From an uncultured Gemmatimonadota bacterium (GTDB lineage Bacteria; GCA-2686955), in contig CAZBBK010000054.1 of NCBI GenBank assembly GCA_964490075.1, positions 1 to 40,845 on the forward strand: 40,845 bases of DNA, given 5' to 3'. The notes under the pieces are model-generated. The model worked only from the letters and a program-made list of their open reading frames with translations, made no database searches and was not told the origin of the DNA. Position numbers and translations under genes: made by a program. Shown here in pieces: positions 11,454 to 29,880 of this stretch; position 1 is the first letter of the stretch, and the number at the start of each line of letters is the position of its first letter.

Positions 11454-11731
11454 GGGACCGGGTGCGCGCAAGGCCCGTGCCGGGCCCTCGCGGCAGCGCG
11501 GAGCCCCAGACGCTGCGCCGATTCCGGTGCCGCGCGGCGGCTCGAGCGGGTGAGCTGGGCAAGAGCCGACCCCCGCGGCGCCCAGATTGACCCCTCGCGC
11601 CCGCTCCGCCGGCGCCTCCGCCGACACTTCCGCCGCGTTCGCCGCGCTCTGCCCTCGCGCCGGCCGTCCCCCGCGCCGGGCTCCCCACACCGACACCCCT
11701 CCCCACCCGCCCTTCCGACCCGCAAGAGCCA

Positions 11732-11937
11732 CCGCACCCCGTCACATCTCCCCACTCTCGATCGAGAGTGGGGAGCCATGACGCAAATCCGGTCATCGCT
11801 GCGCGTTCATCGCGATGAACGGCGAGTCATGACCGATATAGCGTCGTAACTCCGCACTCTCGATCGAGAGTGGTGAATTGTGGCGGGAAATGCCGTCATA
11901 TCTCCCCACTCCGGCCCCGGAACGCGATCTTGTGTCG
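11732..11937. repeat. Second copy of the 51-bp palindromic array, upstream of RAYT copy 1
   Basis: 176 bp identical to 10428-10603 at offset 1304; the fourth unit then diverges. Confidence 0.92.
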
Positions 11938-11970
11938 GAGATCGCCGCCGCCCCCGCGCTCCGCCGGTGC

Positions 11971-13122
11971 TCAGCCCCCGCCTGCGCCCCCGCCTGCCCC
12001 AGTCCCCGCGTGCTCCTCTTCCGCCAACCGTTCCAGCACCCCGAGCCCCCGCTCCAACTGCTCCATGCTGGTCGCGAAGCTCAGCCGAAAGTGCGTGCTG
12101 CGGCGGCTGAAGCTGCTGCCCGGCACCACGATCAGCTTCTCCTCCAGCGCCCGCTCGCAGAAGCTCATGTCGTCGCCCCAGGGCACCCGCGGAAAGGCGA
12201 AGAACGAGCCCCCCGGGGTCGCCAGCTCGTAGCCCGCCCCGCGCAGCCTCGCCACCACCAGGTCGCGTTTCCGCCGGTAGTCGTCCACCTCGGCGCTCAT
12301 GTCGACGTCGAAGGCCGCCAGCGCACCGCGCTGCACCAGCGTCGGCGGGCAGGCGTAGAGAAACTGTTGCAGGGTCCGCATCCGGTCGATCAGCTCCGCG
12401 TGCCCCGCCGCCCAGCCGAGCCGCCACCCCGCCATCCCAAAGCTCTTGGAGAAGCCGCCGACCAAGAGCGACCCCTCGCCGAGCAGAGGCTTGATCCCCA
12501 CGTGCGGGCCGTCGTAGACGAAGTCCTCGTAGAGCTCGTCGCTCAGCACCGGCACCCCGCGCTCGCCGCAGAGCTCGGCCACCGCCCGCAGCTCCTCCGC
12601 CCCGTGCACCGCCCCGGTCGGATTGGCCGGACTGTTGAGGATCACCAGCTTGGTCGAAGCGCCCAGGAGCGGCGCCAGGTCGGCGGCGCGCAGCCGAAAG
12701 TCGGGGTAGAGGTCGTAGGGGACCGGCACACCGCCGACGATGCCGACCAGCTCGTGGTAGATCACGAACCAGGGATCGGGCACCAGCACCTCGTCGCCCG
12801 GGTCGACCAGCGCCAGCAGCGCCAGCGTGATCGCGCCCGACGCCCCGCAGGTCATCATCACCGCCTCGTCGGCTCCCAGCCGATGGCGCTCCACCAGCCG
12901 CGCGCGCGTCGCCGCCACCAGCTCGTCGAAACCCTGCGTCGCGCTGTAGCGACCGCAGCCCTGGTCGATCGCCGCGCGCGTCGCCGCCCGGATCGGCTCC
13001 GGCACGTCGAAATCCGCCTGTCCGATCGACAGGTCGATCGCGTCCGGAATGCGCCGCCCCTTGTCGAAGAACTCGCGCACCCCCGAGGCCCGGATCCTGC
13101 GGTTTCTGTCGGCGAGCTGCAT
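11971..13122 (-). CDS. PLP-dependent class I/II aminotransferase (candidate aromatic amino acid aminotransferase)
   Basis: LSIGQADF, NSPANPTG, SDELY, GFSKSFGMAGWRLG. Divergent from the ior operon; substrate inferred from context only. Confidence 0.9.
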   Translation of the reverse strand: MQLADRNRRIRASGVREFFDKGRRIPDAIDLSIGQADFDVPEPIRAATRAAIDQGCGRYSATQGFDELVAATRARLVERHRLGADEAVMMTCGASGAITLALLALVDPGDEVLVPDPWFVIYHELVGIVGGVPVPYDLYPDFRLRAADLAPLLGASTKLVILNSPANPTGAVHGAEELRAVAELCGERGVPVLSDELYEDFVYDGPHVGIKPLLGEGSLLVGGFSKSFGMAGWRLGWAAGHAELIDRMRTLQQFLYACPPTLVQRGALAAFDVDMSAEVDDYRRKRDLVVARLRGAGYELATPGGSFFAFPRVPWGDDMSFCERALEEKLIVVPGSSFSRRSTHFRLSFATSMEQLERGLGVLERLAEEEHAGTGAGGGAGGG

Positions 13123-13266
13123 CGCGGGTCGCGGCCTCGGCGCGGTTGTGGTGGTTGAAGGAGCGTCCCCGATACCCTAGCATTTCGGCACCCCGAAGCG
13201 CCCTCCCGGTCGCCCCCCCATTCCCCCGCGGCCGGGCCCTGGCGCCCCCGAAAACACGGAGGTCGC

Positions 13267-13761
13267 GTGGACCAGGTGCCGGTCGAGAAGAGGTTCTCCG
13301 TCCTCTGCGAAATCACCCGCGCCCAGCACTTCGCCTGGCGCGAGGCGGTGCGCGAGTGCTGCCCAGACACCGAGATCGGCGCCGTGATCGAGCGCATGTG
13401 GCGCATCACCGGCGAGCAGACCGCCCGCGCCTACCTGAAGCGCCTCGATCCCGACCGCCCCCTCGCCCCGCAAGTCGCCCGCAGCATCGCCTGGTCCAGC
13501 CAGTGCATGGGCGAGGATGCCGCCGTCGAGATCGAGGGCGACCAGGCCCGGGTCCGCCACCGGGCCTGTCCCTGGGTCGACTGGCACCGCAAGCTCGGCC
13601 TGCTCGACGAGGACCGCCCCGGCTGCGACGCCTGGTTCGAGAGCATGACCCGCCTGATCAACCGCGAGCTCGGCACCCGGCTGCGCTTCGAGACCGCCGC
13701 CAGCCTGCCCGAGGGCGGCGACTGCTGCCTGCGCCGTCTCTGGGTCGATGAGGACGAGTAG
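13267..13761 (+). CDS. Small Cys-containing protein (V4R / ATC-hydrolase-like)
   Basis: HRACPW..RPGC..SLPEGGDCC pattern; first gene of the operon; GTG start after GGAGG. Confidence 0.6.
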   Translation: MDQVPVEKRFSVLCEITRAQHFAWREAVRECCPDTEIGAVIERMWRITGEQTARAYLKRLDPDRPLAPQVARSIAWSSQCMGEDAAVEIEGDQARVRHRACPWVDWHRKLGLLDEDRPGCDAWFESMTRLINRELGTRLRFETAASLPEGGDCCLRRLWVDEDE

Positions 13762-13776
13762 TCGGGGCGGCGCTCC

Positions 13777-16700
13777 ATGACGAGCGCTCCGCCCGAACCG
13801 GCGCCGGAGCCCGCGCCCCGCGATCCCCTGCTCGACGACCGGGCCGACCTGGTCGCCGCCCTGCTCGGCAACGAAGCGATCGTGCGCGGTGCCCTCGAGG
13901 CCGGCGTCGGCTTCGCCTCCGGCTACCCCGGCACCCCCTCCTCCGAAGTCACCGACTCGCTGGCGCGCGTCGCCGCCGAGCGCGGCATCGTCTTCGAATA
14001 CTCCATCAACGAGAAGATCGCCCTCGAGACCGCCTTCGCCGCCTCGCTGGCCGGCACCCGCGCCATCTGCGCCATGAAGCACCTCGGCCTGATGGTCGCC
14101 GGCGACCCCCTGTCGACCATCCCCTACGTCGGCGTGCGCGGCGGCCTGGTGATCGTCAGCGCCGCCGATCCCTCCTGCCTGACCAGTCCCAACGAGCAGG
14201 ACCAGCGCCACCTCGGCCCGATGCTGCACCTGCCGGTGCTCGACCCCTCCACCCCCCAGGAGGCGCGCGACCTCACCCTGCTCGCCTTCGACCTCTCCGA
14301 GGCCAGCCGCCTCCCCGTGCTGCTGCGCATCACCACCCGCGCCGCCCACAGCCGCGCCGCCGTGCGCTGCGGCCCCCTGCGCCTCCCCCGCGTCGCCGGA
14401 TTCGCCCGCGATCCCGCCGCCCTCACCCCGATCCCGATCAACGCCCGCCGCATGCGCCTCGAGATCCCGGTCCGCCTCGAGCGCGCGCGCGACCTCATGG
14501 CCGACGCCGGCCTCTTCCAGCGTCGCGGCACCGGCCCACACGCCATCATCGCCGCCGGCGTCCCCGCCGCCACCACCGCCGACCTGCTCGACGAGCACGG
14601 TGCCGTCGGCGAGGTCGTGCTGGCCACGTTGCGCGGGCTGCATCCCCTCCCGGAGAAGGAGTTGGGAGATTTGTTGGACGAGGTCGATGAGATCCTGGTG
14701 GTCGAGGAGCTCTCGCCTTATCTGGAGGACGCGCTGGCTGCCCTGGCGGGCAGGCGCTGCGCCCAGGTGCGGATCCTCGGGAAGCGCACCGATCACCTTC
14801 CCACCCCTTTCGAGTACCAGCCCCACATCATCCAGGCCGCGCTCCACGCCGCCTGGGGCCTGGTGCCCGAGCCGGCCCCGGCCGAGGCGCCCCTCGAGCT
14901 GGCCCCGCGCCCCCCCTCCCTCTGTCCCGGCTGCCCGCACCGCTCCACCTACTTCGCCGCCAAAGTCGCCTTCGACGGCGACGACCAGCACCTCTACTTC
15001 AACGACATCGGCTGCTACACCCTCGGCTACGGCGCACCGCTGCAGACCGTCGACGCCCTGCTCTGCATGGGTGCCGGCTTCACCCTGGCGGCTGGCGTGG
15101 CGCGCGTCAGCGGCCGGCGCAGCGTCGGCTTCATGGGCGACTCGACCTTCTTCCACTCCGGCATGCCGGCGCTTCTCGACGCCGTCAAAGAGGGGGTGGG
15201 GATGGTGGCGGTGATCCTCGACAACCAGGTCACCGCCATGACCGGCTTCCAGGAGAGCCCGACGGTGCGGCAGCGCGAGGGGCGCAGCGAGCGCGACGTC
15301 GACATCGCCGGCGTGGTGCGCGCGCTGGGCGCCGAGCAGGTCGAGGTGATCGATCCGACCAACCTGTCGGCGTCGATCCGCGCCTTCGAGCGGGCTCGCG
15401 ACGCGCGCGGATTGAGCGTGGTGATCGCCCAGGCGCCCTGCCCCGTTCACCAGGCGCGCGAGCGCGGCGGCGGCGCGGCGGCCCGGGTCTTCGAAGTCGA
15501 CCAGGAGCGCTGCCGGAGCTGCGGTCGCGAGGGTTGCGGCATGCGCTGCGATCAGCCGCCCACGCCCGGTCTGGAGCGCCAGCTGGCGCGCGGCCAGGCG
15601 CTGCAAGTCGATCCGGCGCTGGGCGCGAGCGCGCTGCGCGAGGCCGAGCCGCTGGAGCGCGCCGGTGTCGCCCCCTGCGCTACCCGCTGCCCCCTTAGCC
15701 TGTGCGTGCAGGGTTACGCCGGTCATATCGCCGCCGGGCAGCTGCGCGAGGCCTTCGAGCTGATCATGAGCCGCTGCCCCTTGCCCGACTCGGTCTGCCG
15801 GGTCTGCCACCGTCCCTGCGAGGCGGCTTGCGTGCACGCCGAAGTGGGCGAGCCGGTCGCCATCAACGACCTCAAGCGTTTCGTCATGGACTGGGCCGCG
15901 GATCGCGACGACTGCGCCTACCAGCCGGAAACCGAGCCGGAGCACGGGCGCGCCGTGGCCGTCGTCGGCGCCGGCCCGGCCGGTCTGGCCGCCGCCCACG
16001 ACCTGCGCCTGCGCGGCTACGAGGTGCGGCTCTTCGACGCCGCCGCCGAGCCCGGGGGCCTGCTGCGCAGCGGCATTCCGGCCTTTCGCCTGCCGCGCGC
16101 GGCGCTGCGCCGCGATGTGGCGCGCATCCTCGGTCTCGGCGTGGAGTTCGAGGGGGGGCGCCGGCTCGGCGACGACCTGCAGCCGGCCGAGCTGCTGGAG
16201 GCGGGCCACGAGGCGATCTTCCTGGCGCTCGGCGCGCACCGCTCGTCGCGTCTCGAGCTGGAGGGCGCGGACTGCGCCGAGGCGCCCGTCGTCGTCGATG
16301 CCCTCGACTACCTCGCGCAAGGAGCGGCCGCGCTTCCGGGGGCCGCGGCGGCGGCGCGGGTGGTCGTCATCGGCGGCGGCAACGCCGCGGTGGACGCGGC
16401 GCGCTGCGCGCGCCGTGCCGGTGCCGAGCAGGTGCGGATCGTCTACCGGCGGCGCCGCCACGAGATGCCGGCCCTCCCCGACGAGATCGACGCGGCGCTG
16501 ATCGAGGGGGTCGAGATCATGGCCCAGCTCCAGCCGCGCGAGCTGGGGACGCGGCGGCTCTGGTGCATGCGCACCGAGCCGGGGGTCGAGGACGCCAGCG
16601 GCCGCGCCACACCGCGCGTGGTGCCGGGCGGCGAGATCCGCGTCGAGGCCGACCTGGTCATCGTCGCCGCCGGTCAGAGTCCCGAGACCGCATCGCTGGC

Positions 16701-17274
16701 GGTCGGCGACGAGCCGCTGGAGCGCCATCCCGACGGCTCTTTGGTGGTCGACGAGATCTCGCTGGCCACCAGCCATCCGCGCATCTTCGCGGGCGGCGAC
16801 GTGGTGCGCGGCGAGCGCACGGTCACCGCCGCGATCGCACTGGGGCAGCGCGCCGCCTGGGGGATCGACCGGGCCCTGCGCGGATCCGAGGCCGCCGACC
16901 GCAGGCCGCCCCCGCTGCGCACCGGCGACGAGGGCGATTGGCCGCGTCCCGGGCCGCTGCGCTCGCGTTTCCTCCACGAGGGGGCGCGGGCGCGCCGCCG
17001 CCCGCCCGAGATCGCCCTCGAGGAGCGTCTCGCCGGCCAGGGCGAGGTGCACGGTGCGCTGGCCGCGGCGGCGGCCCGCGACGAAGCCGCGCGTTGCCAG
17101 GCCTGCGGGCGCTGCGGCAACTGCCGCGCCTGTCTCGATCTACTCGGCTGTCCGGCCTTCTACATGGAAGAGGGGCGGATCCAGATCGACCCGGGGCTGT
17201 GCAGCGGCTGCGCGGTCTGCGCCCAATTCTGCCCGGGCGGTGCCATCCGGCCGCGGGTGGAGCAGGGGTCGTGA
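13777..17274 (+). CDS. iorA: Indolepyruvate oxidoreductase alpha subunit with an inserted GltD-like FAD/NAD(P) module
   Basis: LLGNEAIVRGA, YPGTPSSE, NEKIALE, MKHLGL, CPGCPH, DIGCY, GDSTFFHSG. Then PCATRCP..VCRVCHRPCEAAC, GAGPAG, GGGNAAVD, FAGGD. Ends in a 2x[4Fe-4S] ferredoxin domain. Confidence 0.92.
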   Translation: MTSAPPEPAPEPAPRDPLLDDRADLVAALLGNEAIVRGALEAGVGFASGYPGTPSSEVTDSLARVAAERGIVFEYSINEKIALETAFAASLAGTRAICAMKHLGLMVAGDPLSTIPYVGVRGGLVIVSAADPSCLTSPNEQDQRHLGPMLHLPVLDPSTPQEARDLTLLAFDLSEASRLPVLLRITTRAAHSRAAVRCGPLRLPRVAGFARDPAALTPIPINARRMRLEIPVRLERARDLMADAGLFQRRGTGPHAIIAAGVPAATTADLLDEHGAVGEVVLATLRGLHPLPEKELGDLLDEVDEILVVEELSPYLEDALAALAGRRCAQVRILGKRTDHLPTPFEYQPHIIQAALHAAWGLVPEPAPAEAPLELAPRPPSLCPGCPHRSTYFAAKVAFDGDDQHLYFNDIGCYTLGYGAPLQTVDALLCMGAGFTLAAGVARVSGRRSVGFMGDSTFFHSGMPALLDAVKEGVGMVAVILDNQVTAMTGFQESPTVRQREGRSERDVDIAGVVRALGAEQVEVIDPTNLSASIRAFERARDARGLSVVIAQAPCPVHQARERGGGAAARVFEVDQERCRSCGREGCGMRCDQPPTPGLERQLARGQALQVDPALGASALREAEPLERAGVAPCATRCPLSLCVQGYAGHIAAGQLREAFELIMSRCPLPDSVCRVCHRPCEAACVHAEVGEPVAINDLKRFVMDWAADRDDCAYQPETEPEHGRAVAVVGAGPAGLAAAHDLRLRGYEVRLFDAAAEPGGLLRSGIPAFRLPRAALRRDVARILGLGVEFEGGRRLGDDLQPAELLEAGHEAIFLALGAHRSSRLELEGADCAEAPVVVDALDYLAQGAAALPGAAAAARVVVIGGGNAAVDAARCARRAGAEQVRIVYRRRRHEMPALPDEIDAALIEGVEIMAQLQPRELGTRRLWCMRTEPGVEDASGRATPRVVPGGEIRVEADLVIVAAGQSPETASLAVGDEPLERHPDGSLVVDEISLATSHPRIFAGGDVVRGERTVTAAIALGQRAAWGIDRALRGSEAADRRPPPLRTGDEGDWPRPGPLRSRFLHEGARARRRPPEIALEERLAGQGEVHGALAAAAARDEAARCQACGRCGNCRACLDLLGCPAFYMEEGRIQIDPGLCSGCAVCAQFCPGGAIRPRVEQGS

Positions 17275-17888
17275 GCGGCGTGAGCGCGCCCAGTCGTTTC
17301 GCTTTGCTGGTGGTCGGGATCGGCGGCCAGGGAGTGCTCACGGTGTCGAGGTTGGTCGGCGAGGCGGCGATGGCCGGTGGGGTCGACGCGGTGCTGGGGC
17401 AGCTCCACGGCATGTCGCAGCGCGGCGGCAGCGTGCAGTCGAGCGTGCTGCTGGGACCCGGGCGGACCTCCTTCGTGGCGGCGGGCGGAGCGCGGGTGGT
17501 GCTCGGGCTCGAGCCTCTGGAGGTGGTGCGCGCCCTGCCGGCCATGGGCCCCGCCACGGTGGTGGTGACCAGCACCGGTCGCATCGTCCCCCACACCCTG
17601 ACCCAGCAAGGCCGCGACTACCCCGAGCTGGCGCCCCTGCTCGACGAGGTGCGGGACCGGGCCGCACGGCTGATCGAGCTTGATGCCCCGGCCCTGGCGC
17701 GCGCCGCCGGCACCGGCCGCGCCCTGAACAGCGTCATGCTCGGGGCCCTCGCCGGGCTCGAGGTCCTGCCGGCGGCGATCAGCGACGAGGCTCTCGTGGC
17801 GGCGATCGAGAGTCGCTTTCCACCCGGTTTCCGGGACATCAACCGGCGTGCTTTCGCGTTCGGCAGGGAGGCCGTGCTGGCGGCATGA
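17271..17888 (+). CDS. iorB: Indolepyruvate oxidoreductase beta subunit
   Basis: GIGGQGVL, HGMSQRGGSV, NSVMLGAL, INRRAF. GTG start overlaps the iorA stop. Confidence 0.93.
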   Translation: MSGVSAPSRFALLVVGIGGQGVLTVSRLVGEAAMAGGVDAVLGQLHGMSQRGGSVQSSVLLGPGRTSFVAAGGARVVLGLEPLEVVRALPAMGPATVVVTSTGRIVPHTLTQQGRDYPELAPLLDEVRDRAARLIELDAPALARAAGTGRALNSVMLGALAGLEVLPAAISDEALVAAIESRFPPGFRDINRRAFAFGREAVLAA

Positions 17889-19957: not shown

Positions 19958-19971
19958 GAGAGGAACGCGCC

Positions 19972-22832: not shown

Positions 22833-23266
22833 TGAGCGTCGATCGAGCTCGCTCCCGAGAGGAGCGGCGGCTGAAAGTGCTGGTGGCCAAGCCGGGGTTG
22901 GACGGCCACGACGTCGGCGCCAAGATCGTCTGCCGGGCGTTGCGCGACGCCGGCTTCGAGGTGATCTACACCGGGCTCAGGCAGTCCCCCCGGGCGATCG
23001 CCACGGCGGCGCTGCAGGAAGATGTCGACGCGGTCGGCCTGTCGATCCTCTCCGGCGCGCATCTGCCTCTGTGCCAGGCGGTCGCTGCCGCGCTGGCCGA
23101 GGCCGGCATCGAGGAACGGGTGCGCTGGTTCGTCGGCGGCACGATCCCGGAGCGCGACCACGCGCCGCTGCGGGCCCTGGGCGCCTCGGACATCTTCCCC
23201 ACCGGCACCGATTTCGCCGAGATCGCCACTGCCATCCGCCGCGCGGTCGAGGAGGGGCAATCATGA
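22832..23266 (+). CDS. Cobalamin-binding small subunit of an acyl-CoA mutase, IaaG-like
   Basis: [10 protein letters not shown] (DxHxxG), GLSILSG, FVGG. Confidence 0.95.
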
Positions 23267-24879
23267 GCCGCAAAGAGCAGGGCGAGCCGCGTCCCGTGGT
23301 CTGGGAATCTGGGATCGAGATCCAGCCGGTCTACGACGCAGCCGACGTGCAAGTCTCGGGCGGCCTCGACGCGGTCGGCGAGCCCGGGCGTTTTCCCTTC
23401 ACCCGCGGGATCCACCCGCGGATGTACCGGCAGCGCCCCTGGACCATGCGACAGTATTCGGGCTTCGGCACCGCCGCTGAAACCCACGAGCGTTTTCTCT
23501 ACCTGATCCGCAACGGTCAGACCGGCCTGAACGTCGCGTTCGACCTGCCCACGCAGTGCGGACTGGACAGCGACGATCCCCTGGCGACGGGCGAAGTGGG
23601 GCGGGTCGGCATGGCGGTCGACTCGCTGGCCGACATGGAGGAGGCCTTCGCCGACATCGACCTGAACCGGATCACCGTGTCGCTCACCATCAACGGCGCC
23701 GCGGCCGCGATCATGGCGATGTACTTCGCCATGGCACGCAAGCGTGGCTACCCACTCTCGGAGCTGCGCGGCACCGCCCAGAACGACATCCTCAAAGAGT
23801 TCATCGGTCGCGGCACCTGGATCTACCCGGTCGCGGAGTCGGTGCGCCTGGTCGGCGACACGATGGAGTTCTGCGCGCGCCACGTGCCGCGCTACAGCCC
23901 GGTCAGCGTCTGCGGCTACCACATCCGCGAGTCGGGAGCGACTCCGGCCGAGGAGATGGCCTACGGCCTGGCCATTGCCCGCGCCTACATCGACCATGCC
24001 CTGGAGCGCGGGCTGGCGGTCGACGAGTTCGCCAAGGGGATCTCCTTCAACTTCGACATCCACGGCAATCTGTGGGAGCAGGTGGCGAAGTTCCGGGCCG
24101 GGCGCCGGCTCTGGGCGCGGATTCTGAAAGAGGAGTACGGCGCCGAAAATCCGCGCTCGATGCAGATGCGCATGATCGCCGGCGGCGGGGGCGGCGGTTT
24201 GACGATCGAGGAGCCCGAGAACAACATCACCCGCGGCGCCACCTACGCCATGGCCAGCGCGCTGTCCGGCACCCAGACCATGGCGCTCTGTTCCTACGAC
24301 GAGGCCTACACCATCCCCAGCGAGCACGCCGCCCTGCTCTCGCTGCGCACCATGCAAATCCTGATGCTGGAGACCGGCCTCTGCGACACCGTAGATCCGC
24401 TGGCCGGCTCGTGGTTCGTGGAGACCACCACCAACCAGATGGAGCGCAAGATCCTGGAGATCATGGAGCGGGTCGAGGAAGAAGGTGGCATCGTGCAGGC
24501 GGTCGCCGAGGGCCGGGTGCAGGCCGAGGTCAACCGCCACGCCTACCTGCGCGAGCAACAGATCCGCGCCGGCGAGGTCAAGAAGGTCGGCGTGAACTGC
24601 TGCAAGAGCGACGACGCGGCGGCGACCCGCGAGGTGGAGTTTCATCCCTACCGGGCCGAGGAGGCCGAGAAGCAGATCGCCCGGCTCGAGAAAGTGCGTA
24701 CCGAACGTGATGCGGGGGAGGTCGCGGCGGCTCTGGAGCAGGTGCGGCGGGCGGCGGCGGCCGGAGAAAACGTGATGCCGAGCATTATCGACGCGGTGGA
24801 GATCTACGCCACCGTGGGTGAGGTCTGCGGCGCCCTGCGCAGTGTGTTCGGCGACTACCAGGAGCCGGTGAGGTTTTGA
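23263..24879 (+). CDS. Acyl-CoA mutase large subunit (MCM family) with a divergent substrate pocket, IaaH-like
   Basis: [47 protein letters not shown]. Confidence 0.93.
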
Positions 24880-26090
24880 GCGTGACCGAGGCCAAGCCGA
24901 TCGTCGTCTCCGTGGAGCAAGCGCTGTCGATGTCGTACGCGACCCTGCGCCTGGTCCATCTCGGCTACCGGGTGATCCGCGTCGAGCAGACGCCGGTGGC
25001 GGGGCGGGCGTCGCGCGGCGATCCCAACCGATTCATCGGCCGGCCGGTGGCGGGCGAGGATCGCAGAAGCTACTTCGTGGCGCCGAACGCCGGCAAGGAG
25101 GCGATCGCCCTCGATCTGCAGCAGGCGGCGGGACGCGAGCTGCTGGCGCGGATGGTGCGCGATTTGCCGGTCGACATCTTCTGCACCAACACGCTGCCGG
25201 CGCGCCACCAGAAGCTGGGCATCGACCACCAGACGCTGGCGGAGCAGCGCCCGGAGCTGATCTGGTGCTGCATCTCGGCGATGGGACTGGCGCATCCCGC
25301 GGTGCCGGGCTACGACCCGGTGCTGCAGGCCCTGTGTGGCTACATGGATCTGACCGGTCACCCGGGCGGGACGCCGCTGCAGTGCGGGCCGCCCCTGATC
25401 GACCTGAAGGCGGGCGACGAGGCCTTCGCGCAGATCATGATCGCCCTGCTCGAGCGGGAGCGGCGCGGTGTTGGTGCCTGCATCGACGTGTCGATGGCCC
25501 AGGCGGCGGTGTCGTGGCTACACACTTTTTTGCCGATGCTCGACATGGGCAGCCCGCCCGAGGAGCTGCGCCGCTCCGGCAACGAGCACCGGCAGTTCAT
25601 CCCCGTGAACGCCTACCGCACTTGCGACGGCCACGTCTATGTCGCCATCGGCTCGGACGCCCAGTGGACACGCTTGGTCGCGCGGCCGCTCTTCGGCGCG
25701 CTGGCGCAGGAGCGTTTCGCGAGCAACGAAGGGCGGCGCGCCGCCAAGGCCGATCTGCACGCGGCGATCGAGGCGATCACCTCACGACACACTCGGGCGC
25801 GGATCAGCACCGAGCTGGAGGCGGCGGCCATCCCCCACGCCCCGATCTCGGCGATCGAGGAGGTCGCGGAGCTGCCCTTCGTGCGCGACACCGCACTCCG
25901 GACGGTCGCTCCCGACGGCCGCGAGGTGCGGCTGCCGCCGCCGGCGCTGAGCACGCCGCATCTCGAGTCGATCTCGGGCGAGCTGCCTTTCGCGCCGGCC
26001 TACGGCGAGCACACCGAAGCGCTGCTCGGCGAGCTGGGGGTCGGCGCCAGCGAGATCGCCGAGCTGCGCGGTGCGGGGGTGGTGGCATGA
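24876..26090 (+). CDS. Class III (CaiB/BaiF) CoA transferase, IaaL-like by context
   Basis: VIRVE..GDPNR, NAGKEAIALDL, PGYD..LQA, PPLIDL (catalytic Asp position), APAYGEHT. Confidence 0.9.
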   Translation: MSVTEAKPIVVSVEQALSMSYATLRLVHLGYRVIRVEQTPVAGRASRGDPNRFIGRPVAGEDRRSYFVAPNAGKEAIALDLQQAAGRELLARMVRDLPVDIFCTNTLPARHQKLGIDHQTLAEQRPELIWCCISAMGLAHPAVPGYDPVLQALCGYMDLTGHPGGTPLQCGPPLIDLKAGDEAFAQIMIALLERERRGVGACIDVSMAQAAVSWLHTFLPMLDMGSPPEELRRSGNEHRQFIPVNAYRTCDGHVYVAIGSDAQWTRLVARPLFGALAQERFASNEGRRAAKADLHAAIEAITSRHTRARISTELEAAAIPHAPISAIEEVAELPFVRDTALRTVAPDGREVRLPPPALSTPHLESISGELPFAPAYGEHTEALLGELGVGASEIAELRGAGVVA

Positions 26091-26971
26091 GCGGCTACGG
26101 ACTGCGGCGCTTGCCCTATCGGCGGCCGAGCTCGGTGGCCGAGGCGCTGGAGGAGCGGCTCGGCAGCGCCGGCGCCCGCTACGTCGCGGGAGGCACCGAT
26201 CTGCTGGTGCGCATCAAGGGTGGGGTCGAGCGGCCGGCGCTCCTGGTGTCGCTGCGGGGCATCGAAGAGCTGCGGTCGATCGTCGTGGAGGATGAGACGA
26301 CCACGATCGGCGCCCTGGCGACCTTGAGCGAGATCGGCGCCGCCCCCGAGCTGCGCGCGCGCCACCCGGTGCTCCGCGAGGCGATCCGCGGCATGGCAAG
26401 CGTCCAGATCCGCAATGTCGCCACCCTGGGTGGCAACATCTGCCGTGCCTCCCCCTGCGCCGACGGCGCGCTGCCCCTGATGGTGCTCGGCGCGCGGGCG
26501 CGCATCGCCGGCCGCGGCGCCGGGGAGCGCGAGGTCGCCGTCGAGGAGCTCTTCACCGGCCCCGGCGAGACCTGCCTGGAGCCGGGCGAGCTGCTCACCT
26601 CGATCGTCGTTCCGCGCGCCGCGCAGCCGCGCCGCGGCGTCTGCCTGAAGCAGGGGCGGGTGCGCGTCGATCTCGCCTTCGCCAGCCTCGCCGCGCAGCT
26701 GCGCCTGGCCGCCGACGGCGAGACCTGCGAGCAAGCGCGCGTCGCCGCCGGCGCCGTGGCACCCACACCGCTGCGCCTGGCGCGGGTGGAGACACTTCTG
26801 GAGGGCGAGCGCATGACCCCCGAGCTGCTGCAACGCGCAGCGGAAATCGCGCGCGACGAAGTGCGGCCGATCAGCGACCTGCGCGCGTCGGCCGACCACC
26901 GGCGCCACATCTCCGGCGTGCTCTGCCGGCGCGCCCTGGAGCGGATCCTGGGGGGGAGGGGCGAGTCATGA
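26087..26971 (+). CDS. Xanthine dehydrogenase family FAD subunit
   Basis: AGGTDL, QIRNVATLGGN, ASPCAD, RPISDLRAS. Confidence 0.93.
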   Translation: MSGYGLRRLPYRRPSSVAEALEERLGSAGARYVAGGTDLLVRIKGGVERPALLVSLRGIEELRSIVVEDETTTIGALATLSEIGAAPELRARHPVLREAIRGMASVQIRNVATLGGNICRASPCADGALPLMVLGARARIAGRGAGEREVAVEELFTGPGETCLEPGELLTSIVVPRAAQPRRGVCLKQGRVRVDLAFASLAAQLRLAADGETCEQARVAAGAVAPTPLRLARVETLLEGERMTPELLQRAAEIARDEVRPISDLRASADHRRHISGVLCRRALERILGGRGES

Positions 26972-27471
26972 GCGACCCGGCGCGCAGCAGTATCCGCTTC
27001 ACACTGAACGGCGCCGAGGTCGCCGCCCAGGTCGAAGGCAGCGAGCCCTTGACCGATCTCCTGCGCGACACCTTCGGCCTGGTGGGCACCCGCGAAGGTT
27101 GCGGCAAGGGAGAGTGCGGCGCCTGCACCGTGCTGATCGACGGCCTGGCCGTCAACGCCTGCCTGACGCCGGCGCAAGAGGTCGAGGGCCGCGCCGTGGT
27201 CACCATCGAAGGGCTGGCCGGCCCCGCGGGACGGCTGGCTCCGATCCAGCGCGGTTTCGTGGAGCGGGGCGGCATCCAGTGCGGATTCTGCTCGCCCGGC
27301 ATGATCCTGGCGGCGCAGGCGCTCCTCGAGCGCAGCGATGCGCCGGCGGAGGAGGGGATCCGCGAGGCGCTGGCCGGCAATCTATGTCGCTGCACCGGCT
27401 ACGTACAGATCGTGCGCTCGGTGGAGCGCGGCGCGGAGATCCTGCGCGAGGAGCGGAGGCGCGATGTCTGA
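26968..27471 (+). CDS. Xanthine dehydrogenase family 2Fe-2S subunit
   Basis: GCGKGECGACTV, QCGFCSPG, GNLCRCTGY. Confidence 0.95.
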   Translation: MSDPARSSIRFTLNGAEVAAQVEGSEPLTDLLRDTFGLVGTREGCGKGECGACTVLIDGLAVNACLTPAQEVEGRAVVTIEGLAGPAGRLAPIQRGFVERGGIQCGFCSPGMILAAQALLERSDAPAEEGIREALAGNLCRCTGYVQIVRSVERGAEILREERRRDV

Positions 27472-29863
27472 GACCCGCTACCTGGGCCGGGACGCGCCGC
27501 GCCCCGACGCCGCCGCCAAGGCCACCGGCCAGGCCCACTACATCCACGACATCGAGCGGCCCGGGATGCTGCACGCGGCGATCAAGTTCTCCGAGCACGC
27601 CCATGCCCGCATCCTCAACGTCGACACCAGCCGCGCCGAGAGGCTGCCGGGGGTGCGCACGGTGATCAGCGCCGCCAACACGCCCGAGATCCGCGTCGGC
27701 TTCCTGCGCGACAATCTCGCGCTGAAGTCGGACAAGGTGCGACAGTTTCGCGACGAGGTGGCGGCGGTCGCGGCGATCGATCCCGACGTGGCCGCCGAGG
27801 CGGTGTCGCTGATCGACGTAGAGTACCAACCGCTGCCCGGGGTCTTCGATCCACGCGAGGCTCTCGAAGAGGACGCGCCCCTGGTCCACGAGCGCAACGC
27901 CGATGGCAGCGGGCGCGCCGGCAACCTGCTCGATCTGACCTTCCGCCACGACTCCGGTGACATCGAGGCCGGCCGGCGCCAGGCCCTCCACGCCGTCGGG
28001 GGCGAGTTCAGCACGCCGATGATCCAGCAGACCTGCATGGGCACCGCCGGCTGTGTCGCCGAGTTCGACCCTTCCGGCAATCTGACCATCTGGGCAAAGA
28101 CCCAGATTCCCTTCCTGGCGCAGCGCGACTTCAACCAGGCGCTGGCGGCCATGGGGCTGAAGGGCCGGAACGCCCGGGTGATCGTGCCCTGCATGGGCGG
28201 CGGCTTCGGCACCGGGCTCGACACCCACGTCTACGAGTATATCTGTATCTTGCTGGCCCACCGCAGCGGCGTCCCGGTGAAGATCCTCTACGATCGGGAC
28301 CAGGAGTTCGCATATCTGTCGCCGCGGCAGAGCGCACGAGTGCGGATCAGCCAGGGTTGCGACGCCGCCGGGCGGCTCACTTATCGGGATGTCGACGTGC
28401 TCCAGGACAACGGTGCCTACACCTCCTGGGGCGCGACCTACCCGAGCGTCATGATGCTGCCGGCGACCTCCCTCTACCGGGTCCCCCACATCCGTTTCGA
28501 TACCAAGATCGTCTACACCAACAACACCTACTGCCAGGCGATGCGCGGCTACGGCAATCCCGAGCTCACCTGGGCGCTCGAGAGCAATCTCGACGATCTG
28601 GCGGCCGCGGCCGGGATCGATCCGTTCGAAATGCGTCTGATCAACTGCAACGAGCCGGGCGAGACCACGCCGATGGGGCTGCGGGTGAGCTCCTGCGGCC
28701 TGCGCGAGTGTCTGCAAGGTGTCGCCGACCGGCTGCAGTGGCGCGAGCGGCGCGGCAGGTCGAGCGCGCCGGGCAAACGGCGCGGTGTCGGGCTGGCCTC
28801 GCTGATGCACGTCGGCGGATCGGGGCGGATCTACCGCAGCGACGCCAGCGGCATCATTTTGCGCCTGGACGACTACGCCAACGTCTACGTCTACTCGGGC
28901 GGTGTCGAGATGGGACAGGGACTGCACTCGGCGCTCGCGCTCGGTGTCGCCGAGTGCCTCGGCGTGCGCCCGGAGCAGGTGCACATCAACCAGACCGACA
29001 CCGCCACCTGCCCCTGGGATGTCGGCACCCACGCCAGCCGCGGGGCCTTCACGGCGCTCAACGCGGCCCACATGGCCGCGACCAGGCTGCGCGAGCGGCT
29101 CTTCGAGCTGGCGACGGAGATCTACGCCGGCGAGGTGGAGCGAAGCTGGAAGCGCTACCAGAAGAAGCACGCCACGGCCAAGCGCGGCGACATCGACTAC
29201 ACGGCGCTGGCCGGCGACCCCCAGGCGTTCGAGCTGGCCGGTGGCTTCCTGTTCCTGGAGCAGGCCGCCGCCGAGCCCTGGGCGCGCATCGAGCTGGGGC
29301 GCTTCCTGCGCGCGCTGCACTTTCGCGAGGGCCGCTCCACCATGCTCACCGAAGAGGCATTCTACGACCCGCCCAGCGAGCTCCCCGACTGGGAGCGGGG
29401 CAAAGGAAATATGTCGGCGACCTATGCCTACGGCACCCAGGGCGTGGAGCTCGAGGTCGACGAAGAGACCGGCGAGGTGCGAATTCTCAAGATGGTCGCC
29501 GTGCACGACGTTGGCAAGGTGCTGAACCGGCAGACGCTGGAGGGGCAGACCTACGGCGCGCTCGCCCAGGGCATCGGCTACGCCCTCTTCGAGGAGGTGC
29601 TGACGGAAGGCGGCCGGATCCTCAATCCCAACTTCACCGACTACAAGATCCCGACCATCGAGGACCTGGCCTTCCCGATCGAGCTCGACTTCATCGAAAG
29701 CGACGATCCCCACGGCCCCTTCGGCGCCAAGGGGGTCGGCGAGCCCGGGCTGGTGCCGACCGCGCCGGCGATCGGCAACGCCATTTGGGACGCGCTGGGC
29801 GTGCGGATAAACGATCTGCCGATCACGCCCGAGAAGATCTTGTGGGCGCTGCGCGCTTCCTGA
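27464..29863 (+). CDS. Xanthine dehydrogenase family molybdopterin subunit
   Basis: KATGQAHY, MGGGFG, AMRGYG, EMGQG, THASR, GAKGVGEP. Confidence 0.95.
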   Translation: MSETRYLGRDAPRPDAAAKATGQAHYIHDIERPGMLHAAIKFSEHAHARILNVDTSRAERLPGVRTVISAANTPEIRVGFLRDNLALKSDKVRQFRDEVAAVAAIDPDVAAEAVSLIDVEYQPLPGVFDPREALEEDAPLVHERNADGSGRAGNLLDLTFRHDSGDIEAGRRQALHAVGGEFSTPMIQQTCMGTAGCVAEFDPSGNLTIWAKTQIPFLAQRDFNQALAAMGLKGRNARVIVPCMGGGFGTGLDTHVYEYICILLAHRSGVPVKILYDRDQEFAYLSPRQSARVRISQGCDAAGRLTYRDVDVLQDNGAYTSWGATYPSVMMLPATSLYRVPHIRFDTKIVYTNNTYCQAMRGYGNPELTWALESNLDDLAAAAGIDPFEMRLINCNEPGETTPMGLRVSSCGLRECLQGVADRLQWRERRGRSSAPGKRRGVGLASLMHVGGSGRIYRSDASGIILRLDDYANVYVYSGGVEMGQGLHSALALGVAECLGVRPEQVHINQTDTATCPWDVGTHASRGAFTALNAAHMAATRLRERLFELATEIYAGEVERSWKRYQKKHATAKRGDIDYTALAGDPQAFELAGGFLFLEQAAAEPWARIELGRFLRALHFREGRSTMLTEEAFYDPPSELPDWERGKGNMSATYAYGTQGVELEVDEETGEVRILKMVAVHDVGKVLNRQTLEGQTYGALAQGIGYALFEEVLTEGGRILNPNFTDYKIPTIEDLAFPIELDFIESDDPHGPFGAKGVGEPGLVPTAPAIGNAIWDALGVRINDLPITPEKILWALRAS

Positions 29864-29880
29864 GGCCGCGAGAGGTCGGT

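What the first reader, a model, noticed from the sequence alone, without database searches (positions are those of the whole stretch)
11971..29863. Candidate anaerobic tryptophan to indolepyruvate to indoleacetyl-CoA ring-opening cluster (iaa pathway with an IOR entry)
Seen: tightly coupled iorA-iorB-hydantoinase A-B-ACAD-B12 subunit-mutase-CoA transferase-Xdh FAD/FeS/Mo, with a divergent aminotransferase. Known: anaerobic indoleacetate degradation in Aromatoleum/Azoarcus uses a Mo hydroxylase (IaaIJK), ATP-dependent hydantoinase (IaaCE), CoA transferase (IaaL), B12 mutase (IaaGH) and decarboxylating acyl-CoA dehydrogenase (IaaF), in similar order, plus a CoA ligase (IaaB). Inference: aminotransferase plus IOR supply indoleacetyl-CoA directly from Trp, which would explain the absent ligase. 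The beta-oxidation genes (thiolase, hydratase/dehydrogenase) are not in the window.
Basis: partly seen in the sequence, partly recalled or inferred. Interest (0 to 1): 0.78.

Follow-up and report, generated by a model that had tools for sequence, protein, structure and literature searches.

The report
Ligase-free tryptophan-to-indoleacetyl-CoA ring-opening operon
This is an operon for oxygen-independent breakdown of the indole ring of tryptophan, in which the usual ATP-consuming activation step is apparently replaced by an unusual indolepyruvate oxidoreductase carrying a built-in NAD(P)H-flavin module; the same design recurs in many uncultured bacteria.

Summary
Window 13267-29863 (+) holds 12 translationally coupled genes, with a divergent aminotransferase at 11971-13122 (-).

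Nine genes are orthologues of the Aromatoleum iaa genes C, E, F, G, H, L, I, J and K. Identities are 35-70%, the C-E-F-G-H order is shared, and best hits to the window hold for 8 of 9 genes, confirmed in reverse for K and L. The acyl-CoA dehydrogenase carries the published IaaF signature (GGG in place of YEG).

- "iorA" is a 1165-aa protein with an NfnB/GltD-type FAD/NAD(P)H/FeS module inserted into IorA's ferredoxin domain.
- A small ATC-hydrolase-like gene lies at 13267-13761.

No IaaB-type ligase was found in the genome. The whole set, including the aminotransferase, recurs in a sister genus. Iaa-linked IorAs form a supported clade: 6 of 6 members with readable flanks sit beside iaa genes. 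Ligase and IOR were mutually exclusive in the loci examined. The genome also encodes class I benzoyl-CoA reductase with Dch/Had/Oah, and BoxB.

I rate it a new variant of a known pathway, of moderate interest.

The parts
11971..13122 (-). Class I/II PLP aminotransferase (383 aa), divergent from the operon. Proposed Trp -> indolepyruvate step.
   Evidence: Pfam Aminotran_1_2, E 6.7e-62. No NCBIfam equivalog cut-off reached. A 61% identical copy lies co-directionally at the 3' end of the same cluster in G002 (L099:16321-17409).
13267..13761 (+). Small (164 aa) ATC_hydrolase/DUF6125-like protein and first gene of the operon. Role unknown.
   Evidence: Pfam PF14196, E 2.4e-9. Atlas first hit 0.96, an ATC-hydrolase family cluster. 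59-60% identical copies lie in L099 (after the Mo subunit) and in L103 (directly before IorA).
13777..17274 (+). IorA (residues 1 to about 582) with an NfnB/GltD-like module inserted into its C-terminal ferredoxin domain. The module holds Fer4_20 at 619-710 and FAD/NAD(P)H at 724-1037. The remainder of the 2x[4Fe-4S] domain lies at about 1107-1158. Proposed indolepyruvate:NAD(P)+ oxidoreductase (CoA-acylating), alpha subunit.
   Evidence: Pfam POR_N, TPP_enzyme_C, Fer4_20, Pyr_redox_2 and Fer4. TIGR03336 IOR_alpha 595.3 bits (cut-off 650.9) over profile positions 5-556 of 595; PRK12771 422 bits over residues 619-1158. PDB: NfnB 4ylf_B, 5jca_L and GltD 2vdc_G match residues 618-1037. The canonical IorA of L116 aligns to residues 18-582 and 1113-1158.
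17271..17888 (+). IorB (205 aa), the IOR beta subunit.
   Evidence: Pfam POR, E 8.5e-28. NF005323 172.6 bits (cut-off 238) and TIGR03334 154 bits (cut-off 205.8). Its start overlaps the IorA stop by 4 bases.
17885..19957 (+). Hydantoinase/oxoprolinase A subunit, IaaC-type. Proposed ATP-dependent opening of the 2-oxindole lactam, together with the B subunit.
   Evidence: Pfam Hydant_A_N, Hydantoinase_A and Hydant_A_C. 57% identical to the Aromatoleum sp. locus L005 homologue. Best hit of that protein in G000.
19972..21717 (+). Hydantoinase/oxoprolinase B subunit, IaaE-type.
   Evidence: Pfam Hydantoinase_B, E 2.1e-139. 70% identical to the L005 homologue. PDB scores: caprolactamase beta 326 bits, acetophenone carboxylase 90 bits, acetone carboxylase 66 bits.
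21717..22832 (+). IaaF-type decarboxylating (2-aminobenzyl)malonyl-CoA dehydrogenase (371 aa).
   Evidence: Acyl-CoA_dh N, M and C domains. 'IGGGTSEI' stands in place of YEG, the signature given in PMC8360864. 56% identical to the L005 homologue. The motif occurs in 12 of 12 iaa-syntenic loci and 1 of 68 other loci.
22832..23266 (+). B12-binding small subunit of the mutase, IaaG-type.
   Evidence: TIGR00640 141.1 bits, over its cut-off of 57.45. A DxHxxG motif is read as 'DGHDVG'. 53% identical to the L005 homologue.
23263..24879 (+). Acyl-CoA mutase large subunit, IaaH-type. Proposed (2-aminophenyl)succinyl-CoA <-> (2-aminobenzyl)malonyl-CoA.
   Evidence: Pfam MM_CoA_mutase, E 7.9e-187. TIGR00641 584.6 bits, over its cut-off of 303.8. 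64% identical to the L005 homologue.
24876..26090 (+). Family III CoA-transferase, IaaL-type.
   Evidence: Pfam CoA_transf_3, E 6.2e-68. 51% identical to the L005 homologue. Reciprocal best hit: 422 bits against 136 for the next hit.
26087..26971 (+). FAD subunit of the Xdh-family molybdenum hydroxylase, IaaI-type.
   Evidence: Pfam FAD_binding_5 and CO_deh_flav_C. 35-38% identical to the L005 homologue, of which it is narrowly the best hit in G000 (127 bits against 120).
26968..27471 (+). 2x[2Fe-2S] subunit of the molybdenum hydroxylase, IaaJ-type.
   Evidence: Pfam Fer2_2 and Fer2. 46% identical to the L005 homologue, but a paralogue on C15 scores higher (50%).
27464..29863 (+). Molybdopterin subunit of the hydroxylase, IaaK-type. 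Proposed C2 hydroxylation of the indole ring.
   Evidence: Pfam Ald_Xan_dh_C, MoCoBD_1 and MoCoBD_2. 42% identical to the L005 homologue. Reciprocal best hit: 463 bits against 258. The nearest solved structure is 4-hydroxybenzoyl-CoA reductase alpha, 1rm6_A, 338 bits.

Best explanation
The unit is a catabolic operon that takes tryptophan to 2-aminocinnamoyl-CoA without oxygen and without a CoA ligase.

Proposed steps:
1. The divergent aminotransferase makes indolepyruvate (inferred).
2. The IorA-fusion/IorB enzyme oxidatively decarboxylates indolepyruvate to indoleacetyl-CoA. It passes the electrons through its FeS chain to the inserted NfnB/GltD-like flavin module and on to NAD(P)+, rather than to free ferredoxin (inferred from domain content).
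3. The Xdh-type Mo enzyme hydroxylates C2 of the indole ring.
4. The ATP-dependent hydantoinase-type A/B enzyme opens the 2-oxindole lactam to (2-aminophenyl)succinyl-CoA.
5. The family III CoA-transferase shifts the CoA.
6. The B12 mutase rearranges the product to (2-aminobenzyl)malonyl-CoA.
7. The GGG-type acyl-CoA dehydrogenase oxidises and decarboxylates it to 2-aminocinnamoyl-CoA.

Steps 5-7 follow the pathway as described in the parts of PMC8360864 that I read. Steps 3-4 are as I recall them from Ebenau-Jehle 2012, which I could not read. Orthology of these genes to iaa genes is shown here.

Beta-oxidation and ring reduction are encoded elsewhere in the genome. The class I benzoyl-CoA reductase cluster sits on contig C22.
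For: Orthology to iaa genes:
- 35-70% identity to an Aromatoleum sp. iaa locus, with the C-E-F-G-H order conserved.
- Best hits to the window for 8 of 9 genes, confirmed in reverse for K and L.
- GGG motif present. It occurs in 12 of 12 iaa-syntenic loci and 1 of 68 other acyl-CoA dehydrogenase loci.

IOR belongs to the unit:
- Start and stop codons overlap.
- The same 13 genes lie on one contig in a different genus, with the aminotransferase and the small gene moved to the 3' end but kept.
- In an IorA tree of 83 rows, the window sits in a clade of 9 (SH-aLRT 100). All 6 members with readable downstream DNA are beside iaa genes; the other 3 contigs end too early to tell. Outside the clade, only 2 of 74 rows (L115, L008) are beside iaa genes.

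Ligase replacement:
- An IaaB-like ligase lies beside iaa genes in 4 loci (L005, L006, L009, L010), none of which has IorA.
- The 8 IorA-bearing iaa loci have no IaaB-like hit (20 sequences examined).
- G000's best IaaB match is 25% identical.
- PMC8360864 (Fig. 1 legend) states that the pathway starts from indoleacetyl-CoA.

NAD(P) link:
- Residues 618-1037 match NfnB and GltD structures.
- FAD and NAD(P) Rossmann motifs are conserved in 14 fused homologues.
- The module is inserted into IorA's ferredoxin domain.

Downstream route:
- TIGR02260 scores 672 bits and TIGR03200 scores 544 bits, both over their cut-offs. BcrA/D, Dch and Had genes lie alongside on C22.
Against: - No activity, expression or metabolite data exist, and no RNA run holds the stretch.
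- IorA (595.3 against 650.9) and IorB (172.6 against 238) stay under NCBIfam's equivalog cut-offs, so substrate identity is inferred from family and context. IORs generally accept several arylpyruvates (general knowledge).
- The aminotransferase is of a generic class. It is absent from the iaa-IOR loci of other lineages (L105, L106, L116, L008).
- The FAD and FeS subunits of the Mo enzyme are only 35-46% identical to the Aromatoleum homologues, and the FeS subunit is not a best hit.
- No transporter or regulator is in the window.
- The genome has a second IorA on C31 and a possible tryptophanase-like gene on C1, so other Trp routes may exist.
- NAD(P)+ as acceptor rests on homology only.
Confidence: 0.68

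Rival explanations
1. The operon degrades imported indoleacetate (auxin), as in Aromatoleum. The IOR only tops up the pool or serves general arylpyruvate oxidation (Phe, Tyr, Trp), so that Trp is not the dedicated substrate.
For: - The nine iaa orthologues act from indoleacetyl-CoA onward, whatever its source.
- IOR enzymes are broad for arylpyruvates (general knowledge).
- The aminotransferase is generic and missing from other lineages' clusters.
- Generic AMP-ligases exist in G000 (C122 and C9, 25% identity to IaaB).
Against: - There is no IaaB-type ligase, no IaaM-type binding protein and no transporter in the window, nor as a close homologue in the genome.
- Ligase and IOR exclude each other in the loci examined.
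- A specialised iaa-linked IorA clade exists, and G000 keeps a separate IorA on C31.
Confidence: 0.14
2. The cluster handles a different heterocyclic or aryl substrate. The IOR-type enzyme would act on another aryl-2-oxoacid, for example a phenylglyoxylate-type acid as in the NAD+-linked phenylglyoxylate oxidoreductase (recalled). The iaa-like enzymes would process a non-indole analogue.
For: - No equivalog cut-off is reached for IOR, hydantoinase, CoA-transferase or Mo enzyme.
- Variant clusters exist that combine a GGG-type dehydrogenase with very different hydantoinase pairs (L011, L012, L101: 28-39% identity), so the scaffold is used for more than one chemistry.
- IOR-like iadA/iadB genes of unknown role sit in the aerobic iad auxin locus (PMC12852158, passages).
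Against: - The window's hydantoinase pair is of the IaaC/E type (57% and 70%), not the divergent type.
- The IorA core matches IOR_alpha far better than other 2-oxoacid oxidoreductase models: 595 bits against 70 or less.
- All nine iaa functions are present together.
Confidence: 0.1
3. The neighbourhood is a chance juxtaposition: an unrelated IOR operon merely lies next to an iaa-type operon.
For: None beyond the general fact that neighbouring genes need not cooperate.
Against: - IorB and HydA overlap by 4 bases.
- Linkage is kept in a second genus and in metagenome loci of several arrangements.
- A Flavobacteriales MAG places a 1123-aa fused IorA between the CoA-transferase and the Mo-enzyme genes.
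- An iaa-linked IorA clade exists.
Confidence: 0.02

Closest known systems
iaa operon of Aromatoleum aromaticum / Azoarcus evansii (anaerobic indoleacetate degradation). Source: PMC8360864, of which I read the abstract, the introduction with the Fig. 1 legend, and discussion part 1. Ebenau-Jehle 2012 and Schuhle 2016 were not readable here.
   Same: - Orthologues of IaaC, E, F, G, H, I, J, K and L lie in one operon with C-E-F-G-H in the same order.
- IaaF GGG signature is present.
- A B12 DxHxxG motif is present.
- The pathway intermediate indoleacetyl-CoA is the common entry point.
   Different: - There is no IaaB ligase, no IaaA thiolase-like gene, no IaaM binding protein and no IaaQ/R regulators in the window.
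- The CoA-transferase lies before rather than after the Mo-enzyme genes.
- An IOR pair, an aminotransferase and an ATC-hydrolase-like gene are added.
- The host is a deep FCB-group lineage, not a betaproteobacterium.
Indolepyruvate:ferredoxin oxidoreductase (IorAB) of anaerobic archaea and bacteria
   Same: - Two-subunit alpha/beta layout.
- POR_N and TPP-binding domains, and a POR gamma-type IorB.
- Strong match to TIGR03336 and TIGR03334.
   Different: - A module of about 530 residues, NfnB/GltD-like with two [4Fe-4S] sites plus FAD and NAD(P)H sites, is inserted into the ferredoxin domain of IorA.
- Scores stay below the equivalog cut-offs.
- The predicted acceptor is NAD(P)+ rather than ferredoxin.
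NfnB / GltD / SudA-type NAD(P)H:FeS flavoprotein modules (PDB 4ylf_B, 5jca_L, 2vdc_G)
   Same: Fer4_20 two-cluster domain followed by FAD and NAD(P)H Rossmann folds, 205-233 bits to these chains.
   Different: - Here the module is not a free subunit. It is embedded in a TPP enzyme.
- No NfnA-type partner is in the operon, so electron bifurcation is not implied.
Tryptophan degradation proposed for Ferroglobus placidus (Aklujkar et al. 2014). I saw only the reference entries; the content is recalled.
   Same: As recalled: aminotransferase plus IOR feeding an iaa-like route to 2-aminobenzoyl-CoA. PMC8360864 confirms that F. placidus has a predicted iaa operon with an IaaF orthologue.
   Different: - That host is archaeal.
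- Whether its IOR is clustered with the iaa genes, or fused to a flavin module, I could not check.
- Its cluster carries an ETF paralogue. None is in this window.
iad auxin-degradation locus of Variovorax (PMC12852158, passages)
   Same: It carries iadA/iadB genes annotated as iorA/iorB next to auxin-degradation genes.
   Different: It is an aerobic Rieske-dioxygenase pathway. It has no hydantoinase, mutase or Mo enzyme. The role of its IOR-like genes was not stated in the passages I read.

Membership tests
iaa (anaerobic indoleacetate degradation) gene cluster | Clustered orthologues of IaaC/E (hydantoinase-type), IaaF, IaaG/H (B12 mutase), IaaL (CoA-transferase) and IaaI/J/K (Mo hydroxylase) | tested here: met
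   Synteny and 35-70% identity to Aromatoleum sp. locus L005. Best hits to the window for 8 of 9 genes; in reverse for K and L.
iaa (anaerobic indoleacetate degradation) gene cluster | IaaF subclass signature: GGG replaces the YEG active-site motif (PMC8360864, discussion and Fig. 5 legend) | tested here: met
   '[13 protein letters not shown]' at residues 350-362. The motif occurs in 12 of 12 iaa-syntenic loci and 1 of 68 other loci.
iaa (anaerobic indoleacetate degradation) gene cluster | Indoleacetate-CoA ligase IaaB | tested here: not met
   There is no AMP-binding gene in the window. The best match in G000 is 25% identical. None was found in the 8 IorA-bearing iaa loci.
iaa (anaerobic indoleacetate degradation) gene cluster | IaaA thiolase-like gene, IaaM binding protein and IaaQ/R regulators in the cluster | tested here: not met
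   None is in the window. An IaaA-like thiolase (37% identity) lies on C37. No IaaM or GntR match was found.
iaa (anaerobic indoleacetate degradation) gene cluster | Turnover of indoleacetate/indoleacetyl-CoA to 2-aminobenzoyl-CoA | not testable with these tools
   Needs enzyme assays or growth tests.
Indolepyruvate:ferredoxin oxidoreductase (IorAB) | Score over the NCBIfam equivalog cut-offs for IOR_alpha and IOR_beta | tested here: not met
   TIGR03336 scores 595.3 against 650.9; the match stops at profile position 556 of 595, where the insertion begins. TIGR03334 scores 154 against 205.8, and NF005323 scores 172.6 against 238.
Indolepyruvate:ferredoxin oxidoreductase (IorAB) | Domain set: POR_N, TPP-binding domain and 2x[4Fe-4S] domain in alpha; POR gamma-type domain in beta | tested here: met
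   The ferredoxin domain is split by the insertion.
Indolepyruvate:ferredoxin oxidoreductase (IorAB) | Ferredoxin as electron acceptor; preference for indolepyruvate | not testable with these tools
   Domain content suggests NAD(P)+ instead.
NfnB/GltD-type NAD(P)H:FeS flavoprotein module | Fer4_20 two-cluster domain plus FAD and NAD(P)H binding folds | tested here: met
   Pfam Fer4_20 (E 2.4e-16) and Pyr_redox_2 (E 3.7e-29). PRK12771 scores 422 bits, under its cut-off of 516. PDB matches at 205-279 bits. Cysteines and glycine motifs are invariant in 14 fused homologues.
Coenzyme B12-dependent acyl-CoA mutase | Mutase N- and C-terminal domain models over cut-off; DxHxxG in the B12 subunit | tested here: met
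   TIGR00641 scores 584.6 (cut-off 303.8) and TIGR00640 scores 141.1 (cut-off 57.45). 'DGHDVG' is present (the motif itself is recalled).
Caprolactamase / ATP-dependent hydantoinase-oxoprolinase family | Hydantoinase_A and _B domains; caprolactamase equivalog cut-off | tested here: inconclusive
   The Pfam domains are met. The CapA and CapB equivalog scores of 662.7 and 385.4 are under the cut-off of 1000. It is a family member but not a caprolactamase equivalog.

The most novel reading that the evidence does not exclude
The 1165-aa protein would define an uncharacterised class of 2-oxoacid oxidoreductase: an indolepyruvate:NAD(P)+ oxidoreductase. An NfnB-type flavin module, inserted into IorA's ferredoxin domain, wires the TPP site directly to pyridine nucleotide. 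Together with the iaa enzymes, it would form a ligase-free, oxygen-independent route for complete tryptophan mineralisation. That route would be widespread in uncultured respiratory bacteria; named source records include Planctomycetes, Acidobacteria/Vicinamibacterales, Krumholzibacteriia, Deltaproteobacteria and Flavobacteriales. A bolder form holds that the NfnB-like flavin also takes the high-potential electrons of IaaF, whose physiological acceptor is unknown according to PMC8360864. I put that form at about 0.07.
Probability: 0.4. Interest if true: 0.7.

Novelty: new variant of a known kind. Interest (0 to 1): 0.55.

Why it matters
Only the ligase-dependent auxin route of denitrifying betaproteobacteria has been studied biochemically. 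This operon type suggests that many uncultured bacteria feed tryptophan itself into that route, saving the ATP of the ligase step.

The entry enzyme carries an inserted NfnB-like module. That gives a directly testable case of a 2-oxoacid oxidoreductase coupled to NAD(P)+ within one polypeptide. Such coupling would explain how respiratory bacteria without a low-potential ferredoxin sink can use this enzyme family.

Source records name these proteins only 'FAD-dependent oxidoreductase' or 'indolepyruvate ferredoxin oxidoreductase alpha subunit', so the pathway is probably overlooked in metagenome-based carbon and nitrogen budgets. The cluster could also help identify the still unknown electron acceptor of IaaF.

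Tried and rejected
- Ebenau-Jehle 2012 (PMC3370604) is not held. Schuhle 2016 and Aklujkar 2014 were seen only as reference entries. I therefore cannot say whether IOR-linked iaa clusters are already mentioned there.
- Searches for a printed description of an IorA-GltD/NfnB fusion found nothing (0 papers; 3 papers hold at least 2 of the terms, 2 listed, neither describing one). One search listed no paper on an IOR-linked iaa cluster. This covers only the held library.
- The promoter and terminator scan of 11700-30200 gave no more sites than shuffles do (1 against 0.7, and 4 against 3.6), so it is uninformative.
- No tRNA gene and no CRISPR-like array were found in the window.
- Sequencing runs: no RNA holder is listed. 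There are 4 DNA holders from one study, labelled marine metagenome. I did not lay reads.
- I tried to assign the beta-oxidation genes by homology to the Flavobacteriales operon (L008). This gave only weak, scattered hits in G000, so the module remains unassigned. The best lead is the IaaA-like thiolase plus a 695-aa ECH protein on C37.
- The Atlas search for the small ATC-hydrolase-like protein confirmed the family but gave no function.
- I did not run structure or complex predictions. The tools return no coordinates, so FeS-chain geometry could not have been read.
- Tryptophan 2,3-dioxygenase family: no hit in the 95%-complete genome. The Beta_elim_lyase hit on C1 (487-aa open frame) was not resolved as tryptophanase or otherwise.

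Full report
**What is there**

The window is a whole 40,845-base contig (C54) of a 5.7-Mb, 68% G+C, 95%-complete genome in 136 contigs.

Pfam and NCBIfam scans, together with a start-codon survey, give one co-directional gene string:
- an ATC_hydrolase-like gene (13267-13761)
- a 1165-aa IorA-type protein (13777-17274)
- IorB (17271-17888)
- hydantoinase A (17885-19957) and B (19972-21717)
- an acyl-CoA dehydrogenase (21717-22832)
- a B12-binding subunit (22832-23266)
- a mutase large subunit (23263-24879)
- a family III CoA-transferase (24876-26090)
- Xdh-type FAD (26087-26971), 2Fe-2S (26968-27471) and Mo (27464-29863) subunits

Eight junctions overlap by 1-8 bases and the other three gaps are 5, 14 and 15 bases. 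A class I/II aminotransferase (11971-13122) is divergent across 144 bases.

The flanks hold unrelated genes: Cas4-Cas1 and Cas10, a GH5 glycosidase, a methyltransferase and beta-helix proteins. No regulator or transporter is among them.

**Is it an iaa cluster?**

PMC8360864 is the source I could read; I saw its abstract, introduction with the Fig. 1 legend, and discussion part 1. It describes the Aromatoleum iaa operon. The pathway starts from indoleacetyl-CoA made by the ligase IaaB and runs through IaaL, IaaGH and IaaF. The paper gives a sequence signature for the IaaF subclass: GGG in place of the YEG active-site motif. The window's dehydrogenase reads [13 protein letters not shown] at that place.

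A scan of one genome per species with an alignment of its homologues returned 80 loci.
- In the 12 loci where the dehydrogenase is 51-68% identical (L001-L012), 11 also carry a B12 subunit and a hydantoinase B.
- In the other 68 loci (43% or less), none carries a hydantoinase and 4 carry a B12 subunit.
- GGG occurs in 12 of those 12 and in 1 of the 68.

One of the 12 is an Aromatoleum sp. genome (L005). Its locus reads: GntR regulator, thiolase-like gene, AMP-ligase, hydantoinase A, hydantoinase B, dehydrogenase, B12 subunit, mutase, FAD, FeS, Mo, CoA-transferase, periplasmic binding protein. That agrees with the gene functions named in that paper's Fig. 1 legend and with the alphabetical gene names; figures are not held, so I did not see the drawn operon.

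| Gene | Identity to the window protein |
|---|---|
| hydantoinase A | 57% |
| hydantoinase B | 70% |
| dehydrogenase | 56% |
| B12 subunit | 53% |
| mutase | 64% |
| CoA-transferase | 51% |
| FAD subunit | 35% |
| FeS subunit | 46% |
| Mo subunit | 42% |

The L005 proteins find the window genes as best hits in this genome for 8 of 9 genes; the FeS subunit prefers a paralogue on C15. The window's Mo subunit and CoA-transferase find the IaaK and IaaL positions as clear best hits in that genome: 463 against 258 bits, and 422 against 136 bits.

Against solved structures:
- Hydantoinase B is nearest caprolactamase beta (326 bits) and far from acetophenone and acetone carboxylase (90 and 66 bits).
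- The Mo subunit is nearest 4-hydroxybenzoyl-CoA reductase alpha (338 bits). That enzyme acts on a CoA thioester.

**What differs from the known operon**

The window has no IaaB-type ligase, and the genome's best match is 25% identical. There is also no IaaA, IaaM or regulator in the window. An IaaA-like thiolase (37% identity) lies on C37 next to a 695-aa enoyl-CoA hydratase-domain protein. In place of these genes the operon has IOR.

**Does IOR belong to the pathway?**

Four lines of evidence say yes.

1. Conservation in a sister genus. In a genome of another genus of the same family (G002, contig C168), the same 13 genes lie on one strand at 45-78% identity. The aminotransferase and the small gene have moved to the 3' end but are kept. 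A third genome has fragments of the same cluster.

2. Recurrence in metagenomes. A metagenome scan with an alignment of fused IorA homologues returned 80 loci, mostly ordinary IorAB.
   - Iaa genes flank IorA in 5 of them: L105 and L106 in the window's order, L116 with an unfused IorA, and L101 and L115 rearranged.
   - A Flavobacteriales MAG (L008, 37% G+C) carries a 1123-aa fused IorA and IorB between the CoA-transferase and the Mo-enzyme genes. The operon there also includes beta-oxidation genes.

3. A dedicated IorA clade. In a tree of 83 IorA cores, the window falls in a clade of 9 with SH-aLRT 100.
   - The 6 members with readable downstream DNA are all iaa-linked.
   - The other 3 (L102, L103, L104) sit on contigs that end at or just after IorA/IorB.
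   - Outside the clade, 2 of 74 rows are iaa-linked (L115; and L008 on a long branch). IOR was therefore recruited more than once.
   - The tree used the quick method, and several rows, including the window's, have a deviant amino-acid composition.

4. Ligase and IOR exclude each other. Among the window and 19 loci examined, an IaaB-like ligase lies beside iaa genes in 4 (L005, L006, L009, L010), none of which has IorA. The 8 IorA-bearing ones have no IaaB-like hit. The remaining loci have neither, or are cut off.

The published pathway begins with indoleacetyl-CoA, and IOR chemistry yields exactly that thioester from indolepyruvate (established knowledge of the family). Replacement of the ligase by aminotransferase plus IOR is therefore the simplest reading.

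**The unusual IorA**

- Residues 29-583 match IOR_alpha (595.3 bits). This is under the cut-off of 650.9 because the match stops at profile position 556 of 595.
- Residues 619-1158 match an NAD(P)-binding GltD-like subfamily, PRK12771 (422 bits).
- Residues 618-1037 match NfnB (4ylf_B, 5jca_L), GltD (2vdc_G, 6s6s_G) and the N-terminal modules of larger FeS enzymes.
- A canonical, iaa-linked IorA (L116, 614 aa) aligns to residues 18-582 (47% identity) and then to 1113-1158 (48% identity). The roughly 530-residue flavin module is therefore inserted into IorA's own ferredoxin domain.
- In 14 fused homologues the cysteine motifs and both glycine-rich nucleotide motifs are invariant.

The protein collection holds fused proteins 52-76% identical. 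The named source records are MAGs labelled Planctomycetes, Krumholzibacteriia, Acidobacteria/Vicinamibacterales, Deltaproteobacteria and Proteobacteria. Their sources name them 'FAD-dependent oxidoreductase' or IOR alpha subunit. For six of them the longest-contig length equals that of a dehydrogenase hit (84354, 11312, 57374, 430572, 25173, 16849). This suggests, but does not prove, shared contigs.

I infer that the module carries IOR's electrons to NAD(P)+. A 'VYRRR' stretch after the second Rossmann strand resembles the NADPH-type motif of GltD/NfnB as I recall it, which hints at NADP+. Distant fused or adjacent IorA-GltD forms without iaa genes also exist (L109, L120, L140, L151), so the fusion idea is not limited to this pathway.

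**Downstream and physiology**

- Contig C22 encodes a class I benzoyl-CoA reductase subunit B (672 bits, over cut-off) with two BcrA/D ATPases and a second HGD-D protein. Beside these lie a dienoyl-CoA hydratase-type gene, a Zn-dehydrogenase-type gene and the ring hydrolase Oah (544 bits, over cut-off).
- BoxB (742 bits, over cut-off) is on C47, and an aa3-type oxidase is on C37.
- The organism therefore looks like a facultative degrader of aromatics via benzoyl-CoA, which fits the expected product 2-aminobenzoyl-CoA. The beta-oxidation genes between the two modules are not identified with confidence.

**Lineage and habitat**

- Among the 30 relatives sampled, only three genomes share the family and one more the class.
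- RpoB is 82-88% identical to five unnamed clusters. It is then 67% or less to anything else.
- Named relatives (62-64%) are Latescibacteria, Eisenbacteria, Zixibacteria and Gemmatimonadota. This places the genome in a deep FCB-group lineage.
- The stretch is held by four DNA runs of one study labelled marine metagenome.

**Comparison with what is known, and novelty**

The downstream chemistry is the known iaa pathway, and IOR is a known enzyme family. As I recall, an aminotransferase/IOR entry to an iaa-like route was proposed for Ferroglobus placidus (Aklujkar 2014). I could not read that paper or Schuhle 2016, so prior mention of IOR-linked iaa clusters cannot be excluded.

Three things appear to be new:
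- the clustered, ligase-free architecture in bacteria of many phyla
- a dedicated iaa-linked IorA clade
- the insertion of an NfnB-like NAD(P)H module into IorA

My searches of the held library found no description of such a fusion and no listed paper on an IOR-linked iaa cluster.

I rate it a new variant of a known kind. Confidence in the pathway reading is about 0.68, and interest is moderate (0.55). All functional statements beyond orthology and domain content are inferences awaiting enzyme assays.

Noticed in passing
window 973-4572: Type III CRISPR-Cas genes at the left end: a Cas4-Cas1 fusion (973-2844, -) and a Cas10/Csm1-like gene (2866-4572, +). The ORFs following them have no Pfam hit. 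Tandem Repeats Finder saw no repeat array in the window.
   Followed up: partly
window 29881-31596 (-), 36827-38551 (-); L099:17474-19987; G000 C37 (L186:1568-3880, 7912-8979, 10594-12936): Large beta-helix / NosD / Chlam_PMP-repeat proteins flank the cluster here. Similar proteins lie next to the G002 cluster and next to the IaaA-like thiolase on C37. A 93-base tandem repeat (37154-37367) lies inside one of them.
   Followed up: no
window 10490-11970: About 1.4 kb between the methyltransferase and the aminotransferase holds three overlapping long ORFs on both strands. None has a Pfam hit, and the coding frame is unresolved.
   Followed up: no
L008:1-21119 (Flavobacteriales MAG): A one-strand operon combines the following genes: an HGD-D/BcrAD-type pair (the ATPase fused to a ketopantoate-reductase-like domain), 3HCDH+ECH, hydantoinase A/B, RidA, an IaaF-type dehydrogenase, an OB-fold/thiolase pair, a B12 mutase, a CoA-transferase, a 1123-aa fused IorA, IorB and a Mo-enzyme FeS subunit. 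It is possibly a complete Trp-to-benzoyl-CoA-level pathway in one locus.
   Followed up: partly
L011, L012, L101: Variant clusters keep the GGG-type dehydrogenase, the B12 mutase (large subunit not found in L012) and, in L011 and L101, a CoA-transferase. Their hydantoinase A/B pairs are very different (28-39% identity to the window's). L101 combines this with a fused IorA. They may act on a different heterocycle.
   Followed up: no
G000 C22:16000-24200 (L187), C47:36136-37539: The same genome carries both the anaerobic class I benzoyl-CoA reductase pathway, with a sigma-54 activator nearby, and the aerobic BoxB epoxidase.
   Followed up: partly
L109, L120, L140, L151: IorA proteins fused or adjacent to a GltD-like module occur in other branches of the IorA tree without iaa genes nearby. 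NAD(P)-linked IOR variants may therefore be more general than this pathway.
   Followed up: partly
G000 C31:38114-39712 and C17:5372-8794: The genome holds a second, divergent IorA (41% identity, 833-aa open frame) and a second hydantoinase A/B pair (28-35% identity to the Iaa homologues). Their roles are unknown.
   Followed up: no
PMC12852158, gene table in section 28: The aerobic iad auxin-degradation locus of Variovorax lists iadA/iadB as iorA/iorB-like genes. This is a second, independent association of IOR-type genes with auxin catabolism.
   Followed up: no
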